Part shown: one piece after another, positions 21,827 through 61,266 of the stretch | Numbering within the stretch: position 1 is the first letter of the stretch | How the letters are laid out: each line of letters opens with the position of its first letter | Sequence record: PZ543597.1 | Direction: 5' to 3' (one strand) | Source: a phage | DNA length: 64,000 nucleotides | Program-made: the position numbers and the translations under genes | The notes under the pieces: model-generated | Seen by the model: the letters and a program-made list of their open reading frames with translations, nothing else | Database searches by the model: none | Told to the model about the DNA's origin: nothing

Positions 21827-22636
21827 TTAGAAACGAGATGCGACTTTCGCATATACACTTACAATATCTTCTGCACCAGGTGCAGCTTTATCTTCTACAG
21901 CTTCAGTGACGAAATTCAGTCCGGCTGCTTCAGTATCAGGAGTATTTATACTCTCAGTAATAGTGCTTTCATCTTTATTAGATTTCTTCACCATTTCTAC
22001 GATTGCACTCAATTTACTTGAGAATGCATCTGAATAATCCATACCTTCGACCAGAGCAGAGACTTTTTCTTTTTGAGACTCAGTCAGATCTTTAGTACTT
22101 TCGCTCAATGCCACTTCACGCTGCACATAATTGATATATGCGTCACGCTTATTGAGTTCTTCGAACAGACGAGCTGATTCTTCTTTATGTTCTTGCAGTT
22201 CTTCTTCCATTTCAGCTACAACATCAACTGATTCTTCTGGAACAACAACGTTGTGTTCAACAAAGAGCTCTTTCAATCCACCAAGCATGGATTCAAACAG
22301 TTCGGCTTTGATACCTTTATCTACTGCTAATTTATTTTCAGTGAGCCATTCTTTTGCAAGATGGTCAAGGAATTTAGAAGCTTGCTCAGCGATTTTCTTC
22401 TCAGCTTTTTCTTCTGCTTCTTCTTTATTTTTTTCTACTTCTTCTTCTGCTTTTTCAGCAATTTTAGCGATATGAGATTCAGCTAATTTAACGGCGTGCT
22501 GCTTGACGGTAGCTTCGAATACAGTGCCGAAAGTTTCTTTTGCTTCCGGAGAAATATTAACTGATTCGAAAATACTATCAAGAGCAACGGAAGCATCAAT
22601 TTTTTGCGCTTCAGCAATCAGTTGTTCTTTAAGCAT
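21827..22636 (-). CDS. 22: prohead core scaffold protein gp22
   Basis: 269-aa ORF, highly acidic/coiled, length and order as T4 gp22. Confidence 0.9.
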   Translation of the reverse strand: MLKEQLIAEAQKIDASVALDSIFESVNISPEAKETFGTVFEATVKQHAVKLAESHIAKIAEKAEEEVEKNKEEAEEKAEKKIAEQASKFLDHLAKEWLTENKLAVDKGIKAELFESMLGGLKELFVEHNVVVPEESVDVVAEMEEELQEHKEESARLFEELNKRDAYINYVQREVALSESTKDLTESQKEKVSALVEGMDYSDAFSSKLSAIVEMVKKSNKDESTITESINTPDTEAAGLNFVTEAVEDKAAPGAEDIVSVYAKVASRF

Positions 22637-22666: not shown

Positions 22667-23305
22667 TTATAACGCTTTTTTCATGGCCTCTGCGAGAGCC
22701 ATATAGGCGTCATCGGCACTTGTATCGGCTTCCGCCGTCTGTGATTCGGTAATTTCCTTAGGAGTTACCCATGCATCTGGAGCACTTGGACCCCATACTG
22801 CATCAACACCTACAGTTAATTTGAATCCTTCGTTTACGATACGATAACCTTTATTTGTGTCAGTCAATGAACCTAATCCACGAGAAGAAACTCCTGGAAT
22901 CCATCCGGCACGAATATTAGCTGCTAATTTATCTCCAGGACCATGGTCACCTTCAATAACACGAGCTCGTCCGTATACGTCATTTCCTTTCCACCACATA
23001 TCTTCTATAATGATAGCGGCTTGCATCGGGTCAACATTAGCGCGTGGAGGATGATTTAATTCTCCGAGAGCTTGTTTAGTTAAAACTTGCTCATTAATAT
23101 AGTCTTTTACCGCTTTTTCTAATATGCGTTTTGGATAAAGACGTTTATTTCTATTGACGACTTCTGCTTGCATGAATATTCCTTCGATGTATAAACCCGG
23201 TTTTAAACCTAAGTTTTTTCCATCGTGGGATTCAAGCATTGGCACACCATCAATAATTTCGCCAGGTTGACCCCAAGTTTCAATTAGTAATTGGGGTTCA
23301 TTCAT
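22667..23305 (-). CDS. 21: prohead core protease gp21
   Basis: 212-aa ORF, length and order as T4 gp21. Confidence 0.9.
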   Translation of the reverse strand: MNEPQLLIETWGQPGEIIDGVPMLESHDGKNLGLKPGLYIEGIFMQAEVVNRNKRLYPKRILEKAVKDYINEQVLTKQALGELNHPPRANVDPMQAAIIIEDMWWKGNDVYGRARVIEGDHGPGDKLAANIRAGWIPGVSSRGLGSLTDTNKGYRIVNEGFKLTVGVDAVWGPSAPDAWVTPKEITESQTAEADTSADDAYMALAEAMKKAL

Positions 23306-52448: not shown

Positions 52449-52682
52449 ATGAAAACTTACCAAGAATTTATTGCTGAAACTGCTGATGTAAAAGTTGAGT
52501 TTATTTACACTGGCAAGAAAGATAAAATGGGTGAAATGCCTCATGGAGTTCTTCGTGATGCATTAGATAATTTCGGTCAACTCGCCGCAGAAGATTACGG
52601 TGATAAAATTGTTGTTACTGGTCCTGCTGCAGTTATTGAAAAATGGGCAGCAGAAAATAAATCAATTTTTCGTAAAAAATAA
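52449..52682 (+). CDS. internal-protein-like head protein with capsid-targeting leader (MKTYQEFIAE)
   Basis: 77 aa from the internal ATG; N-terminal MKTYQEFIAE is the T4 IP capsid-targeting/gp21-cleavage motif (L/I-x-E). Confidence 0.75.
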   Translation: MKTYQEFIAETADVKVEFIYTGKKDKMGEMPHGVLRDALDNFGQLAAEDYGDKIVVTGPAAVIEKWAAENKSIFRKK

Positions 52683-53711: not shown

Positions 53712-53784
53712 TGGGAATTAGCCAAGTTGGTAAGGCACTGGATTTTGATTCCAGGATGCAAAGGTTCGAGTCCTTTATTCCCAG
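53712..53784 (+). tRNA. tRNA-Gln (anticodon UUG)
   Basis: acceptor TGGGAAT/ATTCCCA, anticodon loop tTTTGAt, T-loop GGTTCGAGTCC. Confidence 0.85.
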
Positions 53785-53785
53785 C

Positions 53786-53872
53786 GCGAGAATGGCCAAA
53801 TTGGTAAAGGCACAGCACTTAAAATGCTGCGGAATGATTTCCTTGTGGGTTCGAGTCCCACTTCTCGCACCA
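53786..53872 (+). tRNA. tRNA-Leu (anticodon UAA), type II, CCA encoded
   Basis: acceptor GCGAGAA/TTCTCGC, anticodon loop CTTAAAA, long variable arm, 3' ACCA. Confidence 0.85.
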
Positions 53873-53877
53873 AATTT

Positions 53878-53951
<74 letters not shown>

Positions 53952-53961
53952 ATTTAATTTA

Positions 53962-54035
53962 CTCCGTGTAGCTCAGTTTGGTAGAGCGTCTGCTTTGGGA
54001 GCAGAATGTCGTAGGTTCAAATCCTGCCACGGAGA
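53962..54035 (+). tRNA. tRNA-Pro (anticodon UGG)
   Basis: acceptor CTCCGTG/CACGGAG, anticodon loop TTTGGGA, T-loop GGTTCAAATCC. Confidence 0.85.
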
Positions 54036-54037
54036 CT

Positions 54038-54127
54038 GGAGGCGTGGCAGAGTGGTTTAATGCACCGGTCTTGAAAATCGGCAGTCGCTCCGGCGACTCA
54101 TAGGTTCAAATCCTATCGCCTCCGCCA
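54038..54127 (+). tRNA. tRNA-Ser (anticodon UGA), type II, CCA encoded
   Basis: acceptor GGAGGCG/CGCCTCC, anticodon loop CTTGAAA, long variable arm. Confidence 0.85.
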
Positions 54128-54132
54128 GTTTT

Positions 54133-54208
54133 GCTGATTTAGCTCAGTAGGTAGAGCAACTCACTTGTAATGAGAAGGTCGGCGGTTCGATTCCGTCAAT
54201 CAGCACCA
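54133..54208 (+). tRNA. tRNA-Thr (anticodon UGU), CCA encoded
   Basis: acceptor GCTGATT/AATCAGC, anticodon loop CTTGTAA. Confidence 0.85.
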
Positions 54209-54209
54209 A

Positions 54210-54284
54210 GGCCCTGTAGCTGGAAGGTTCAAGCAAGCGACTCATAATCGCCAGATGGTGGTTCAATTCCACCCAGGGCCACCA
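54210..54284 (+). tRNA. tRNA with CAU anticodon (Ile via lysidine, or Met), CCA encoded
   Basis: acceptor GGCCCTG/CAGGGCC, anticodon loop CTCATAA. Confidence 0.8.
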
Positions 54285-54293
54285 AATTAATTT

Positions 54294-54380
54294 GGGGAGT
54301 TATCCCGTAGAGGTAGCGGTGTGGACTGTAAATCCATTGTCATTGCGACTCGGGTGGTTCGACTCCACCACTCCCCACCA
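54294..54380 (+). tRNA. tRNA-Tyr (anticodon GUA), type II, CCA encoded
   Basis: acceptor GGGGAGT/ACTCCCC, anticodon loop CTGTAAA, long variable arm. Confidence 0.8.
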
Positions 54381-54384
54381 ATTT

Positions 54385-54459
54385 GGATGTGTAGCTCAAT
54401 GGCAGAGCGATCGCCTGTTAAGCGATTGGTTATAGGTTCGAATCCTATCACGTCCGCCA
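54385..54459 (+). tRNA. tRNA-Asn (anticodon GUU), CCA encoded
   Basis: acceptor GGATGTG/CACGTCC, anticodon loop CTGTTAA, T-loop GGTTCGAATCC. Confidence 0.8.
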
Positions 54460-54573
54460 AATTTGTGACAACTGTCACATTAATATCTACTTGACGCGAT
54501 TATAGGGGTTGAACTGATCACTCTTCTCTTAATTTCGTGTGAAGACATCTTGATTGTTGGAGTAGGTATTAAT

Positions 54574-54649
54574 GTGGCCGTAGTTCAGTTGGTAGAACTC
54601 GAGATTGTGATTCTCGTAGTCATGGGTTCGACTCCCATCGGTCACCCCA
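54574..54649 (+). tRNA. tRNA-His (anticodon GUG), CCA encoded
   Basis: acceptor GTGGCCG/CGGTCAC, anticodon stem CGAGA/TCTCG with loop TTGTGAT, discriminator C. Confidence 0.75.
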
Positions 54650-54653
54650 ATTA

Positions 54654-54729
54654 CGGGGCATAGCTCAGAAGGAAGAGCAAGGACCTTCTAAGTCCTAGGT
54701 CGTAGGTTCGATCCCTACTGCCTCGACCA
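54654..54729 (+). tRNA. tRNA-Arg (anticodon UCU), CCA encoded
   Basis: acceptor CGGGGCA/TGCCTCG, anticodon loop CTTCTAA, T-loop GGTTCGATCC. Confidence 0.85.
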
Positions 54730-54747
54730 ATTATAAGTGAGGAAAAT

Positions 54748-55098
54748 ATGAAAGGTAATGTTTATTTAGTAGTTCATGATTTAACATTCTATTTTAATCA
54801 TAATGATACTGTTATTTCTGAACGTGTAATTAATTTGCTTTATCAGCATGCAGATTATGTTTATGTCGAAAACGAATATGGTCATTGGCAATTTCTCAAA
54901 AATCGTTCATTTGGTTTAGATGGTTACGAATATTTTGATCGTAAAGACCTTTTAGATACAATTCCGTTATCTACACAATATCAAAATCATAAGTCTTTAC
55001 ATAAATGCCGGCTAATTCGAAATGCTGAATCCGCGTATGAAGCAATTGATTTGTGGCGTAAACGCCGTGAATATATTGATTCTTTAAAAGAATATTAA
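54748..55098 (+). CDS. hypothetical protein
   Basis: 116-aa ORF with SD (gaggaaa) directly after tRNA-Arg. Confidence 0.6.
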   Translation: MKGNVYLVVHDLTFYFNHNDTVISERVINLLYQHADYVYVENEYGHWQFLKNRSFGLDGYEYFDRKDLLDTIPLSTQYQNHKSLHKCRLIRNAESAYEAIDLWRKRREYIDSLKEY

Positions 55099-55405
55099 GA
55101 AACCGGGTCGCTACCGGTAAGTCGTCGGACTGATGTTCCCTGGAGTATAGTTTCCTCCCACAGTTTTACTGTGTTCTGGCTCTTTACTATCACAGCAGAA
55201 ACGGCGCACCGAATTATCGATTCGAGGAAATATCTTTGCCGTAAGCCGAGTAGCGTTTTTGACGGAACGTTCGGATATGGTCGAGATATGGCCTTTTAAA
55301 AATATTGAGTAGCGTCAACTACTTAATAACCGGGTTCGAATCCCGGCGTTTCGTACAAACACTTGCCTTAGCAGGTGGAACCCCGACAAGGTTGCCGCAA
55401 GGCTT

Positions 55406-55434
55406 AGCCCCGACCGAAAGGTTGGGGCTTTTTG
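55406..55434 (+). terminator. rho-independent terminator (copy 1 of a repeated 31-bp terminator)
   Basis: agccccgacc-gaaa-ggttggggct + ttttt. Confidence 0.7.
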
Positions 55435-55435
55435 G

Positions 55436-55443
55436 TATAAATA
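55436..55443 (+). promoter_or_regulatory. late promoter TATAAATA upstream of the internal-protein gene
   Basis: exact TATAAATA 36 nt upstream of the ATG at 55479. Confidence 0.65.
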
Positions 55444-55478
55444 TTAGTATATTAAATCTACAAATTAAAACAGGAAAT

Positions 55479-55955
55479 AAGATGAAATCATATACTCAAT
55501 TTTTAAATGAAGCGGTGTTAAATGAAGCATCTAGCACCGAAATTCAAGCTGTTGCAAAAGCTGCCATTGCCGCGGGTAAATATTCCTATAAAGATGCTTC
55601 TGATGAATCGCGATTCCAGTTTGCACGCGACATGAAAGCGGAAGGATTTACGGGAAATGCAGTTAGTATGGCCTGGAAAAGTTTAGTTGCTACTGGCGCT
55701 GCTTTTGCAAAGGCTTCGGGTAAACCTGCTCCTAAAGCAGATCCTAAAGCGGCACAAGAAAAAAATATCGTTAAAGGAATTATCGCTAAATATGAAGCTA
55801 TCCTTAAAGAGCTTTTAGTAATCAAAACCGAAGGCCAAAAGTTAGCCCGTGCTTATAGTTTCAAAGATAATCCACATGTTCACTCTCTTGAGTATGTTGA
55901 AGACATCCAAAAAATTATTAAAGACCGCATTTGGTCTGCTAAACAAATCAAATGA
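55479..55955 (+). CDS. internal-protein-like head protein with capsid-targeting leader (MKSYTQFLNEA)
   Basis: 158 aa; start at internal ATG with SD aggaaa; leader fits the IP capsid-targeting motif; Ala/Lys-rich body. Confidence 0.75.
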   Translation, partial: KMKSYTQFLNEAVLNEASSTEIQAVAKAAIAAGKYSYKDASDESRFQFARDMKAEGFTGNAVSMAWKSLVATGAAFAKASGKPAPKADPKAAQEKNIVKGIIAKYEAILKELLVIKTEGQKLARAYSFKDNPHVHSLEYVEDIQKIIKDRIWSAKQIK

Positions 55956-55962
55956 CATTCTT

Positions 55963-55990
55963 AGCCCCGACCGAAAGGTTGGGGCTTTTT
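55963..55990 (+). terminator. rho-independent terminator (copy 2 of the repeated 31-bp terminator)
   Basis: same 31-bp hairpin sequence as at 55403-55433. Confidence 0.7.
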
Positions 55991-56080
55991 AGTTTGAATC
56001 ACTCGGATAACGCTGTTACGGATAGTAACAAAGTAATAAATAATTAATAACCAACCGATAAATTATTTCAAGGATTTTAA

Positions 56081-56644
56081 ATGAAAACCTATGCCGAATT
56101 TTTAACCGAAGCAGCAAAATTACCATCTGAAGCAGATCTTACTAAAGTATTCTTCCAATTGGACCCAAAAGACCGCGGCGATTTTCTTAAGTGGAAAGCT
56201 AAAGCTATTGAAATGTACAACATCGATAATAGTTCTTTTACAATGAGTCAAGAAAATAAATTCAATAAAGCATTTTTCAAAATTTCTAAGAAATTGGCAT
56301 CTGGCGCTCAGGTTCCTAAATCTGTGTTAGCTACTCCTGAACGCGCACCTGTTAAAATTTCTAAGAATATGTTCGACACTAAAAAATACGTTAATGCTTT
56401 GAATAAAGCTCTTGATGCATTGGATGATGCAAAGAAGGCAGCCCGCGATCTTCAAGACGTGTACACCGATTTTGACCGCAAAACTAAAGGTTCTATTTCA
56501 AATAGCGAACGCAATAGTGTAAGTGTTTATTCTGATAGCCTTGATGTTCTTGGCGATGCGTATACTGAAATTAAAAATCGTATTAACACTGCATCTAAGC
56601 TAAAAGCTGCTGCAGAAGCTATAATAAGTAAACTAGGTAAATAA
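56081..56644 (+). CDS. internal-protein-like head protein with capsid-targeting leader (MKTYAEFLTEA), IPIII-sized
   Basis: 187-aa ORF; leader MKTYAEFLTEA; SD aaggat. Confidence 0.75.
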   Translation: MKTYAEFLTEAAKLPSEADLTKVFFQLDPKDRGDFLKWKAKAIEMYNIDNSSFTMSQENKFNKAFFKISKKLASGAQVPKSVLATPERAPVKISKNMFDTKKYVNALNKALDALDDAKKAARDLQDVYTDFDRKTKGSISNSERNSVSVYSDSLDVLGDAYTEIKNRINTASKLKAAAEAIISKLGK

Positions 56645-56652
56645 TTTTAAAT

Positions 56653-56677
56653 CCCTATCTAAATGATAGGGCTTTTT
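56653..56677 (+). terminator. rho-independent terminator
   Basis: CCCTATC-taaat-GATAGGG hairpin + cTTTTT. Confidence 0.65.
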
Positions 56678-56810
56678 GGTATCTAGGCCTTTCTGGACCT
56701 CTCTAGGCATCATTTAGTTTCTACCCTTTATAATATATTATCCTATCCTTTAACTGCCCCTTCCCTCCCTAGAATTCCCTAAAACTTTTTAAAATTTTTT
56801 CACAAAACTG

Positions 56811-59541: not shown

Positions 59542-60026
59542 TTTTAAAAACTCGCTGGTATGATTTAGATGATGGGGACGATAGCATTTCAGTTGATAGA
59601 GTTGACTGGAATGGCTGTTCCGAAGATATGAAAAATTTGCTGATTAGGGAGTTTAGAATGGGATATCAACCAGTTAAGCCATCTACTGCAACAGATGATA
59701 AATTCGTGTGTATTCATAATGGTCGCGCTAAATTAACGAACGCTGATTGGTTCACAGATAAAATTATGATTCTGTGGTACATTATTAGTTTTCCTGTGAC
59801 ATCATTTGTATTTTGCTTCTTTGGAGAAAGTCCAGTAGGCAGAACGGGAGATTGGATTCTTTTAATCATACTTGTTAATATTTTTACAGCAGCAGTACTA
59901 TCAGGAATATGGTGCGTGTTCATTGAAATGCCATGGCGTTTACGTAGGCAGCAAAAGATTTTTGATGAAAAGAAATATACTCAAAATTTAAATAACTTTA
60001 TCACTGAATGCAGGAAATTAAAATGA
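59538..60026 (+). CDS. small two-TM membrane protein (paralogue family)
   Basis: start placed at internal ATG (MILKTRWYDL...) with SD aggaaa; two hydrophobic segments; C-terminus FITECRKLK. Confidence 0.55.
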   Translation: MILKTRWYDLDDGDDSISVDRVDWNGCSEDMKNLLIREFRMGYQPVKPSTATDDKFVCIHNGRAKLTNADWFTDKIMILWYIISFPVTSFVFCFFGESPVGRTGDWILLIILVNIFTAAVLSGIWCVFIEMPWRLRRQQKIFDEKKYTQNLNNFITECRKLK

Positions 60027-60463
60027 AAACATTATCAGCTGGTATTATCTTTATGACAGAAGATAAAGATTTATTCATGGGACGGGTTACTGGTTCTCGT
60101 AAGCCTGGAATGATGGCACATCGCTGGGATATTCCAAAGGGCCGTGTAGAAAATTCTGATTTAAACGCACTAGATGCAGCACGAAGAGAATGTTTAGAAG
60201 AGACTGGTTTTAGCAATTATAATCCAGACCTTCTAGAAGACCTAGGTGTATTTAAATATTCTAGTAATAAAGACTTACAGTTATTTTATTATACGATTCC
60301 AGTAGAGCATGAGATGTTTAGAAATTGCCATTGCGAGTCTTATTTTGAAAATAAAGATGGTGTTATGATTCCAGAGATGGATGCTTTTGCTCTTATTCCT
60401 CGTACTCAGTGGCAATATGTGATGGGTCCTTCACTTTACCGAATAATGAACAGCCTCTTTTAA
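60023..60463 (+). CDS. nudE: Nudix hydrolase NudE
   Basis: Nudix box GRVENSDLNALDAARRECLEETGF (G-x5-E-x7-REUxEExGU); immediately upstream of e as in T4; start at ATG with SD aggaaa. Confidence 0.85.
   Translation: MKTLSAGIIFMTEDKDLFMGRVTGSRKPGMMAHRWDIPKGRVENSDLNALDAARRECLEETGFSNYNPDLLEDLGVFKYSSNKDLQLFYYTIPVEHEMFRNCHCESYFENKDGVMIPEMDAFALIPRTQWQYVMGPSLYRIMNSLF

Positions 60464-61266
<803 letters not shown>

What the first reader, a model, noticed from the sequence alone, without database searches (positions are those of the whole stretch)
55436..56644. Pair of capsid-targeted internal-protein genes with unrelated cargo domains
Two adjacent ORFs begin with the T4 internal-protein capsid-targeting leader (MKSYTQFLNE-A and MKTYAEFLTE-A), each ending in the L/I-x-E cleavage motif of prohead protease gp21. 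The first is driven by an exact late promoter TATAAATA. Their bodies (158 and 187 aa) are unrelated to each other. In T4, injected internal proteins include IPI*, an inhibitor of the GmrSD restriction system, so these are candidate injected anti-defence effectors.
Basis: partly seen in the sequence, partly recalled or inferred. Interest (0 to 1): 0.7.

Follow-up and report, generated by a model that had tools for sequence, protein, structure and literature searches.

The report
Two paralogous T4-type internal head proteins
Two neighbouring late genes of a T4-like phage encode small basic proteins carrying the signal that loads proteins into the phage head for injection with the DNA; they are distant copies of one widespread, unannotated family that phage T4 itself lacks, and not two unrelated cargoes.

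Summary
ORF1 (55482-55955, 157 aa) and ORF2 (56081-56644, 187 aa) both start with the T4 capsid-targeting sequence (MKSYTQFLNE|A, MKTYAEFLTE|A) ending in the L-x-E site of prohead protease gp21. An exact TATAAATA lies 46 nt upstream of ORF1.

One claim is wrong: the bodies are not unrelated.
- Both hit phrog_2280 over their full length.
- Enriched profiles align end to end (hhalign 97-98%; 93% without the leader, far above shuffles).
- AlphaFold gives both the same layout: three-helix N-domain, basic Pro/Ala/Lys linker, long helical hairpin.

Each gene is a self-contained cassette (late promoter, gene, terminator). Relative to T4 the pair is a 1244-bp insertion between the rnaC terminator and e.8. 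T4 has neither gene, phiD1 only ORF1, RB14 only ORF2.

Relatives sit at the same locus in at least five other T4-like genera, and every copy inspected is called "hypothetical". Neither body resembles T4 IPI, IPII or IPIII. The ORF1 orthologue of phage fD1 was found in purified virions by published mass spectrometry.

Best reading: packaged, gp21-trimmed, co-ejected internal proteins. This is a new member of a known kind. An anti-defence role is plausible by analogy with IPI and IPIII but untested.

The parts
55406..55435 (+). Intrinsic terminator closing the rnaC-like RNA region (10-bp stem, GAAA loop, T tail). Its tail GCTTTTTGGTAT is the left junction of the insertion and supplies the first bases of the late promoter.
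55436..55443 (+). Exact T4 late-promoter octamer TATAAATA, 46 nt upstream of the ORF1 ATG
55472..55477 (+). Shine-Dalgarno AGGAAA of ORF1
   Evidence: read directly from the sequence
55482..55955 (+). ORF1, 157 aa, phrog_2280 member. The predicted mature protein is 16.0 kDa (15.5 kDa if also cut at Glu15), pI 9.5.
55482..55526 (+). ORF1 propeptide: capsid-targeting sequence MKSYTQFLNE|A (codons 1-10), followed by AVLNE (residues 11-15), which ends the second L-N-E|A site
   Evidence: rules from PMC9026906 and PMC12991175
55963..55992 (+). Terminator after ORF1. Together with the 3 bases before it (55960-55990), it is a 31-bp exact repeat of the terminator upstream of ORF1.
56035..56042 (+). 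Near-consensus late promoter AATAAATA, 46 nt upstream of the ORF2 ATG (RB14 has GATAAATA here)
56081..56644 (+). ORF2, 187 aa, phrog_2280 member. The predicted mature protein is 19.6 kDa, pI 9.5. The capsid-targeting sequence MKTYAEFLTE|A occupies 56081-56110.
56653..56682 (+). Terminator after ORF2. Its tail GCTTTTTGGTAT is the right junction; T4-collinear sequence resumes at 56683.
55439..56682 (+). 1244-bp two-cassette insertion relative to T4, flanked by a 12-nt direct repeat GCTTTTTGGTAT
22667..23305 (-). gp21 prohead protease (Pfam Peptidase_S77, E 8.6e-111), the enzyme expected to remove the leaders
21827..22636 (-). gp22 scaffolding core protein (Pfam T4_CASP, E 2.5e-90). The internal proteins are built into this scaffolding core and, in T4, co-purify with gp22.
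   Evidence: PMC9026906
52449..52682 (+). Third gene with the leader in the window (77 aa, MKTYQEFIAE|T), at the T4 ipI site; phrog_8111 'internal virion protein'
60985..61266 (+). Fourth gene with the leader (93 aa, [10 protein letters not shown]|SILNE|A), Ip5-like, between e and denV where T4 has ipIII and ipII; phrog_3499 'internal head protein'

Best explanation
ORF1 and ORF2 are two distantly paralogous internal head protein genes of a T4-like phage (Tequatrovirus). They belong to an unannotated family, phrog_2280. Each is a self-contained late cassette: N-ATAAATA late promoter, ribosome-binding site, gene, intrinsic terminator.

Inferred pathway, following the T4 IPIII paradigm:
1. The genes are transcribed late.
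2. The 10-residue N-terminal capsid-targeting sequence takes the protein into the gp22 scaffolding core of the prohead.
3. gp21 cuts after Glu10, and in ORF1 probably again after Glu15.
4. The mature ~16 and ~19.6 kDa basic (pI 9.5) all-helical proteins stay in the head with the DNA and are ejected into the cell with it.

Shown here: the leader, the cleavage sites, the promoter elements, the paralogy, the cassette boundaries, the synteny, the presence of gp21 and gp22 in the window, and published virion detection of the ORF1 orthologue.

Inferred: the actual targeting, the cleavage, the copy number, the ejection, and the role in the host.

My best guess for that role is a DNA-associated first-minutes function, meaning coating or escorting the entering DNA through the basic Pro/Ala/Lys linker and helical domains. 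That may include blocking a host defence. No specific target can be named.
For: Leader and promoter
- The leader and L-x-E sites are present. The pattern occurs 4 times in 572 ORFs and never in 100 shuffles.
- The T4 rules for residues 4, 7, 8 and 10 are met (PMC9026906). The I/L-x-E specificity of gp21 is reported in PMC12991175.
- TATAAATA lies 46 nt before ORF1 and AATAAATA 46 nt before ORF2. N-ATAAATA lies 33-48 nt upstream in 10 of 10 family genes from six genera.
- gp21 and gp22 are encoded in the same window.

Protein properties
- The mature forms have pI 9.5 and net charge +7 and +9, like T4 IPIII (pI 9.65) and IPII (pI 9.56).
- fD1 g140, 98% identical to ORF1, is a strict-threshold particle-associated protein in virion LC-MS/MS.

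Paralogy
- Both hit phrog_2280 over the full length.
- hhalign gives 97-98% over the full length and 93% without the leader, with score 47.9 against a shuffle maximum of 18.7.
- The Karamvirus protein links both by BLASTP at 1e-5.
- The AlphaFold layouts match.

Cassette structure and synteny
- Four haplotypes share junctions at the terminator tail: T4 empty, phiD1 with ORF1 only, RB14 with ORF2 only, the window with both.
- The locus is syntenic in Karamvirus, Marfavirus, Mosigvirus, Kanagawavirus and Jiaodavirus.
- The complete genome of phage D5505 carries identical copies of both genes and has no IPI, IPII or IPIII body.
Against: - There is no direct evidence that ORF2 is in virions.
- The fD1 proteome called 113 of 277 gene products particle-associated, including clearly non-structural ones, so its specificity is limited.
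- No neo-N-terminal peptides have been shown, so cleavage is unproven.
- ORF2's promoter octamer departs from consensus at its first base.
- ORF1 has an internal L-K-E (residues 108-110) whose fate is unknown.
- Frameshifted or truncated alleles exist in phages G29, G4500 and OE5505, and RB69 has a split gene, so the genes are dispensable.
- The AlphaFold models are only moderately confident (mean pLDDT 72.6 and 64.3), built from shallow alignments.
- DNA binding by the linker is inferred from composition alone. The linker is short in these two proteins (net +2 and +4) and longer and more basic only in distant relatives.
Confidence: 0.75

Rival explanations
1. Specific injected anti-defence inhibitors. 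Each mature protein binds and blocks a particular host immunity protein in the first minutes of infection, as IPI* does with GmrSD. This is a claim about the role in the host and is compatible with the packaging pathway of the best explanation.
For: - Precedents exist: IPI* (PMC3012670), and T4 IPIII, which is required on ECOR17 and works from a plasmid without its leader (PMC9391042).
- The two cassettes are present or absent independently, and disrupted alleles occur.
- The family diverges much faster than its neighbour e.6: 24-33% identity against 54-88% over the same phage pairs.
- Alternative subtypes occupy the locus within one genus, Mosigvirus (JS09 versus APCEc01).
Against: - ORF2 is 95-100% identical in 164 of 165 records that carry it, which does not suggest rapid diversification.
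- The locus and architecture are conserved across at least six genera with different hosts, which fits a general role better than a strain-specific target.
Confidence: 0.3
2. Bulk internal proteins with no specific host target. They are abundant basic filler that neutralises or organises packaged DNA, or assists core and prohead assembly, as reported for T4 IPIII mutants. This too concerns only the role of the proteins and is compatible with the packaging pathway.
For: - Size and charge match IPII and IPIII.
- In the complete D5505 genome they are the only large basic proteins with the leader, and IPII and IPIII are absent.
- Distant orthologues have a Pro/Ala/Lys-rich basic linker with net charge up to +9.
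- The fold is non-enzymatic and helical.
- The locus is syntenic across genera.
- The IPIII assembly phenotype is described in PMC9026906.
Against: - They are not a strict replacement for IPIII. Both types occur together in Shfl2, ECML-134, ZCEC14, UFV13, VIPECOOM03, Lutter and JS98.
- T4 and T2 manage without the family.
- The supposedly bulk protein IPIII now has a host-range phenotype, so bulk and anti-defence roles are not exclusive.
- The N-domains are far better conserved than a filler would need: 58% identity between the ORF1 N-domain and the Klebsiella phage KP1 protein.
Confidence: 0.4
3. Not packaged. They would be cytoplasmic late proteins whose N-terminus merely descends from an ip gene by recombination, with the leader vestigial.
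For: - ORF2 has no virion evidence.
- The fD1 particle-associated list is permissive.
- D5505 has a 54-aa ORF beside the primase gene with the same kind of N-terminus, so the motif may occur outside true internal proteins.
Against: - In T4 the first 10 residues alone suffice for targeting, and every critical position is kept.
- The leader and the cleavage Glu stay conserved across subfamilies whose bodies share under 30% identity. M1 and E10 are the only invariant columns of the family alignment, which implies selection on the leader itself.
- Late promoters are conserved.
- The ORF1 orthologue passed the strict MS threshold.
Confidence: 0.08
4. Two unrelated cargo domains, each captured independently behind a leader, as the finding's title says.
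For: Pairwise BLASTP finds only the 11-residue leader. hhalign on shallow alignments was negative.
Against: - Both belong to phrog_2280.
- Enriched profile comparison and shuffle controls show homology of the bodies.
- A transitive BLASTP link runs through the Karamvirus protein.
- The predicted architecture is the same.
- The locus and the promoter spacing are the same.
Confidence: 0.05

Closest known systems
T4 internal protein III (IPIII, ipIII; phrog_5341)
   Same: - The leader is nearly identical (MKTYQEFIAE|A).
- It is a late gene cleaved by gp21.
- The mature protein is about 20 kDa with pI about 9.6, close to ORF2 (19.6 kDa, pI 9.5).
- It is dispensable and is ejected with the DNA.
   Different: - The bodies show no detectable homology: hhalign probability is 7-22% and comes from the leader only, and the PHROG differs.
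- The locus differs: T4 ipIII lies between e and denV.
- IPIII and this family occur together in many phages.
T4 IPI / IPI* (GmrSD inhibitor; phrog_4363)
   Same: It is a small internal protein with a leader, processed by gp21 and injected. It is the only internal protein with a defined anti-defence mechanism.
   Different: - Its propeptide is 19 residues long.
- It is reported as a compact alpha/beta fold (PMC3012670), whereas both models here are all-helical.
- There is no sequence similarity.
Polymorphic T-even internal proteins Ip4, Ip5, Ip7 (Repoila et al. 1994; RB14 and T2 annotations)
   Same: This is the same phenomenon: diverse bodies behind a conserved leader, held in variable cassettes at a few hot spots. 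The window's 93-aa gene is itself Ip5-like (48% identical to the Ip5-type gene of phage D5505).
   Different: - ORF1 and ORF2 are not homologous to Ip4 (phrog_3155; same 157-aa length by coincidence) or to Ip5.
- They occupy a third hot spot, between rnaC and e.8.
- No record inspected names them as internal proteins. Curated RB14 calls its copy 'RB14ncORF136c hypothetical protein'.
phrog_2280 (function unknown)
   Same: Both proteins are full-length members (E 2e-60 and 2e-53).
   Different: The PHROG has no annotation. The leader, late promoter, synteny and virion evidence gathered here supply one.

Membership tests
T4-type internal head proteins (carrying a capsid-targeting sequence, processed by gp21) | N-terminal capsid-targeting sequence M-K-T/S-Y/F-x-E/Q-F-I/L-x-E with the critical residues 4 and 7 | tested here: met
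   MKSYTQFLNE and MKTYAEFLTE. The pattern matches 4 of 572 ORFs and none in 100 shuffles. Rules from PMC9026906.
T4-type internal head proteins (carrying a capsid-targeting sequence, processed by gp21) | gp21 site L/I-x-E| at the end of the leader | tested here: met
   L8-N-E10|A and L13-N-E15|A in ORF1; L8-T-E10|A in ORF2. Only the sequence motif is shown; actual cleavage was not tested.
T4-type internal head proteins (carrying a capsid-targeting sequence, processed by gp21) | Late transcription from a TATAAATA promoter | tested here: met
   The octamer is exact for ORF1. ORF2 has AATAAATA at the same 46-nt spacing. N-ATAAATA is conserved in 10 of 10 family genes. Promoter activity itself was not tested.
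T4-type internal head proteins (carrying a capsid-targeting sequence, processed by gp21) | The phage encodes the gp21 protease and the gp22 scaffolding core | tested here: met
   Window 22667-23305(-) matches Peptidase_S77 (E 8.6e-111); 21827-22636(-) matches T4_CASP (E 2.5e-90).
T4-type internal head proteins (carrying a capsid-targeting sequence, processed by gp21) | Protein present in purified virions (ORF1) | tested here: met
   fD1 g140 (98% identical) is a strict-threshold particle-associated protein in Table S3 of PMC8309999. Caveat: 113 of 277 gene products were called particle-associated.
T4-type internal head proteins (carrying a capsid-targeting sequence, processed by gp21) | Protein present in purified virions (ORF2) | not tested
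   I found no virion proteome of a phage that carries ORF2.
T4-type internal head proteins (carrying a capsid-targeting sequence, processed by gp21) | Ejection into the host with the DNA | not testable with these tools
   This needs labelled-virion infection or reporter fusion experiments.
T4 IPI, IPII and IPIII sequence families | Homology of the mature body | tested here: not met
   BLASTP matches only the leader. tblastn finds no body match in the D5505 genome. hhalign gives 7-35%. The PHROGs differ.
IPI*-like anti-restriction proteins | Compact alpha/beta fold and inhibition of GmrSD | tested here: not met
phrog_2280 | Full-length match to the family profile | tested here: met
   ORF1 E 2.3e-60 (residues 1-157); ORF2 E 2e-53 (residues 1-181).

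The most novel reading that the evidence does not exclude
phrog_2280 would be a fourth major class of internal protein, Tevenvirinae-wide and overlooked because T4 and T2 lost it. It would be a two-domain, injected protein whose conserved N-domain engages a conserved partner, either a widespread host defence or the entering DNA end. Its variable C-terminal hairpin and basic Pro/Ala/Lys linker would be under arms-race or DNA-binding selection. The two tandem paralogues here would then cover two different targets.
Probability: 0.3. Interest if true: 0.6.

Novelty: new member of a known kind. Interest (0 to 1): 0.42.

Why it matters
Internal proteins reach the cell together with the phage DNA, before any phage gene is expressed. 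That makes them prime candidates for first-response counter-defence: IPI* blocks GmrSD, and IPIII is needed on ECOR17 against an unknown system.

This work assigns a large family, annotated only as "hypothetical", to that class. ORF1 occurs in 512 phage records and ORF2 in 165, and relatives occur in at least six genera.

It also defines the exact cassette boundaries. That makes clean deletions, cassette swaps and complementation with the leaderless protein straightforward. The leaders could serve as alternative tags for loading foreign proteins into non-T4 therapeutic phages.

The terminator-bounded cassettes add a concrete example of how T-even phages shuffle accessory genes at regulatory-element junctions.

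Tried and rejected
- Pfam, PADLOC and PDB sequence searches gave nothing above threshold.
- hhalign on the first, shallow alignments (A1 against A2) was negative (17%). It became positive only after orthologues from other genera were added.
- The N-domains and C-domains compared separately are not significant (2.9% and 25%). The homology claim therefore rests on the whole body, the shuffle controls, the PHROG and the BLASTP bridge.
- I rejected the idea that ORF1 and ORF2 strictly replace IPII and IPIII. D5505 lacks those proteins, but many phages carry IPIII together with ORF1 or ORF2.
- I rejected RB14 Ip4 (also 157 aa) as an ORF1 homologue; the sequences are unrelated.
- The phmmer search of 1.84 billion representatives with ORF2 found only 6 hits, and the profile word-index search found 30. 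All lie on T4-like contigs and none has an informative name.
- Literature searches on Ip4, Ip5 and Ip7 names returned inositol-phosphate papers. Repoila et al. 1994 is not held. Petrov et al. 2010 does not discuss internal proteins. The fPS-65/fPS-90 paper has no proteomics.
Full report
**What the window is.** The region is 99% identical to many Tequatrovirus (T4-like) genomes such as D5505 and U115. The window's + strand corresponds to the T4 minus strand. The local gene order is:
- gene 1, 57A, 57B;
- a 77-aa gene carrying the capsid-targeting leader;
- trna.4, trna.3 and trna.2, then eleven tRNAs;
- a 116-aa ORF, then an rnaD/rnaC-like region;
- ORF1 and ORF2;
- e.8 through e.2, nudE, and e (lysozyme);
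- a 93-aa gene carrying the leader, then denV.

**Check of the observation.** ORF1 is 55482-55955 (157 aa). ORF2 is 56081-56644 (187 aa).
- They start MKSYTQFLNE|A and MKTYAEFLTE|A. T4 IPII and IPIII start MKTYQEFIAE|A.
- T4 genetics places targeting at residues 4 and 7 and processing at residues 8 and 10 (PMC9026906). gp21 cuts after Glu in I/L-x-E (PMC12991175). All of these positions are kept.
- ORF1 has a second L-N-E|A at residues 13-15. This double site recurs in the 93-aa gene and in distant family members.
- A strict leader pattern hits 4 of 572 ATG-ORFs in the window and none in 100 shuffles.
- TATAAATA is at 55436-55443. The octamer is enriched in the window: 24 copies against 9.9 expected.
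- ORF2 has AATAAATA at 56035-56042. Both octamers start exactly 46 nt before their ATG.
- Across ten family genes from six genera, an N-ATAAATA octamer always lies 33-48 nt upstream, usually right after a terminator. I therefore regard ORF2's element as a probable late promoter. This is an inference.

The two bodies are not unrelated.
- BLASTP sees only the leader, and shallow profiles were negative.
- Both proteins match phrog_2280 over their full length (2.3e-60 and 2e-53).
- I enriched the ORF2 side with a distant relative from the exhaustive search (P0026) and with syntenic orthologues from Karamvirus, Marfavirus, Mosigvirus and Kanagawavirus. hhalign then aligns the two families over 155-158 columns at 96.8-97.8% probability (E 5e-12 to 3e-10).
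- With the leaders removed the match is still 93.2% with score 47.9. Column-shuffled controls give 12.1 +/- 2.0 (maximum 18.7, n=150), and the reversed alignment gives 15.9.
- Other proteins carrying the leader (T4 IPII, T4 IPIII, Ip4, and the 77- and 93-aa genes) score only 22-34 against these profiles. That is the contribution of the leader alone.
- The Karamvirus protein hits the ORF1 C-terminal half and full-length ORF2 by plain BLASTP, each at 1e-5.
- Caveat: the N-domains and C-domains compared separately are not significant.

**Architecture.** AlphaFold2 gives both proteins the same order of elements (mean pLDDT 72.6 and 64.3):
- a leader helix;
- three short helices, forming the N-domain;
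- a disordered linker rich in Lys, Pro and Ala;
- two long helices forming a hairpin.

**Cassette structure.** Relative to T4 the two genes form a 1244-bp insertion (55439-56682). It lies between the rnaC terminator and the sequence leading to e.8, and is flanked by the 12-nt repeat GCTTTTTGGTAT formed by terminator tails. ORF1 is bracketed by a 31-bp exact repeat of the same terminator. Four haplotypes share these junctions:

| Phage | Content at the locus |
|---|---|
| T4 | empty |
| phiD1 (fD1) | ORF1 only |
| RB14 | ORF2 only |
| this window | both |

T2 also has no annotated gene at this locus. Each gene is therefore an independent unit of promoter, gene and terminator. Gain or loss most plausibly occurs by recombination at the repeated terminators. 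This is an inference.

**Distribution.**
- ORF1 is found in 512 phage records and ORF2 in 165.
- A family member sits at the syntenic position in Mosigvirus, Karamvirus, Kanagawavirus, Jiaodavirus and Marfavirus.
- The family diverges far faster than its neighbour e.6: 24-33% identity against 54-88% over the same phage pairs.
- Within Tequatrovirus, however, ORF2 is 95-100% identical in 164 of 165 records.
- Frameshifted or truncated alleles occur in G29, G4500 and OE5505, and RB69 has a split gene.
- Every source name I saw is 'hypothetical protein', including curated RB14 ('RB14ncORF136c'). By contrast the window's 77-aa and 93-aa genes are widely named internal head proteins.

**Mechanistic context.**
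- The window encodes the gp21 protease (Peptidase_S77, E 8.6e-111) and the gp22 scaffold.
- A complete genome with identical ORF1 and ORF2 (D5505) has no IPI, IPII or IPIII body homologue. In that phage these are the only large basic proteins carrying the leader.
- This is not a strict replacement. IPIII occurs together with ORF1 or ORF2 in Shfl2, ECML-134, ZCEC14, UFV13, VIPECOOM03, Lutter and JS98.

**Experimental support from the literature.**
- The fD1 virion proteome (PMC8309999) lists g140 (67942-68415, 157 aa) as a strict-threshold phage-particle-associated protein with no T4 counterpart. It is 98% identical to ORF1.
- The method was permissive: 113 of 277 gene products were called particle-associated. 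The result is supportive, not decisive.
- I found no proteome covering ORF2.

**Function.**
- The idea that T-even internal proteins are a diverse set sharing only the leader, evolving against host defences, is established (Rao and Black 2010, PMC3012670, citing Repoila et al. 1994).
- IPIII is required on ECOR17 and works in trans without its leader (PMC9391042).
- By analogy an anti-defence role is plausible here, but nothing in sequence or fold identifies a target.
- The basic linker, the helical non-enzymatic build and the deep synteny fit a general DNA-associated role at least as well.
- I put about 0.75 on the pathway of packaging, trimming and ejection. For the role in the host, which is a separate and non-exclusive question, I put about 0.4 on a mainly bulk, DNA-associated or assembly role and about 0.3 on a specific anti-defence target.

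**Verdict.** The feature is real and correctly recognised as internal-protein genes. It is a new, unannotated, widespread member of a known kind, not a new kind. The title claim of unrelated cargo domains is refuted, and the anti-defence claim is untested.

Noticed in passing
window 52449-52682 and 60985-61266: There are two further genes with the capsid-targeting leader. One is 77 aa (MKTYQEFIAE|T) at the T4 ipI site. The other is 93 aa, Ip5-like ([10 protein letters not shown]|SILNE|A), between e and denV, where T4 has ipIII and ipII. Both mature forms are near neutral (pI 6.3-6.5, or 8.1 for the 93-aa gene if its second site is also cut), unlike ORF1 and ORF2. The ATG of the 93-aa gene overlaps the stop codon of e (ATGA).
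   Followed up: partly
window 55100-55400: This is an rnaD/rnaC-like stable-RNA region, collinear with T4 species 2 and species 1 RNAs. No Rfam family matches it. Phage G29's record annotates part of it (about 55263-55356) as tRNA-Lys(ttt), but ARAGORN finds no tRNA there.
   Followed up: partly
window 53712-55098: The tRNA cluster has 11 genes (Gln, Leu, Gly, Pro, Ser, Thr, Met/Ile-CAU, Tyr, Asn, His, Arg) against 8 in T4. T4's homing endonuclease segB is absent. A 116-aa ORF of unknown function (54748-55098) follows tRNA-Arg.
   Followed up: no
L003 17445-17609 (-) (phage D5505, outside the window): A 54-aa ORF beside the primase gene starts MKTYKEFIKE|D, a near-perfect capsid-targeting leader. 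It continues as a Gly/Ser/Lys/Glu-rich low-complexity tail. It may be another tiny internal peptide, or evidence that the motif occurs outside true internal proteins.
   Followed up: no
P0024, P0023, P0013 (metagenome and assembly proteins): These are chimeric proteins. P0024 joins ORF2 residues 97-122 directly to the NudE body (window 60008-60463), implying a natural deletion of about 3.9 kb that removes e.8 to e.2. P0013 fuses a trna.3-like N-terminus to the last 30 residues of ORF1. They suggest frequent illegitimate recombination in this accessory region, or assembly artefacts.
   Followed up: no
L001 5081-5643 (phage G29); also G4500, OE5505 and RB69 ORF148c/149c: ORF2 is frameshifted into two CDSs in several isolates. 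ORF1 is N-terminally truncated in OE5505. Both genes are therefore dispensable at least for propagation.
   Followed up: partly
ORF2 protein cluster: One automated source (JGI/IMG) names the ORF2 protein 'isopenicillin N synthase-like dioxygenase'. No Pfam or fold evidence supports this, so it is almost certainly a spurious transfer.
   Followed up: partly
L011 versus L013 (Mosigvirus JS09 versus APCEc01): Within one genus the same locus carries different subtypes of the family: a 208-aa long-linker type in JS09 and a 154-aa ORF1 type in APCEc01. The neighbouring e.6 matches the window's e.6 at the same level (88% identity) in both phages. The cassettes are therefore exchanged as alleles.
   Followed up: partly
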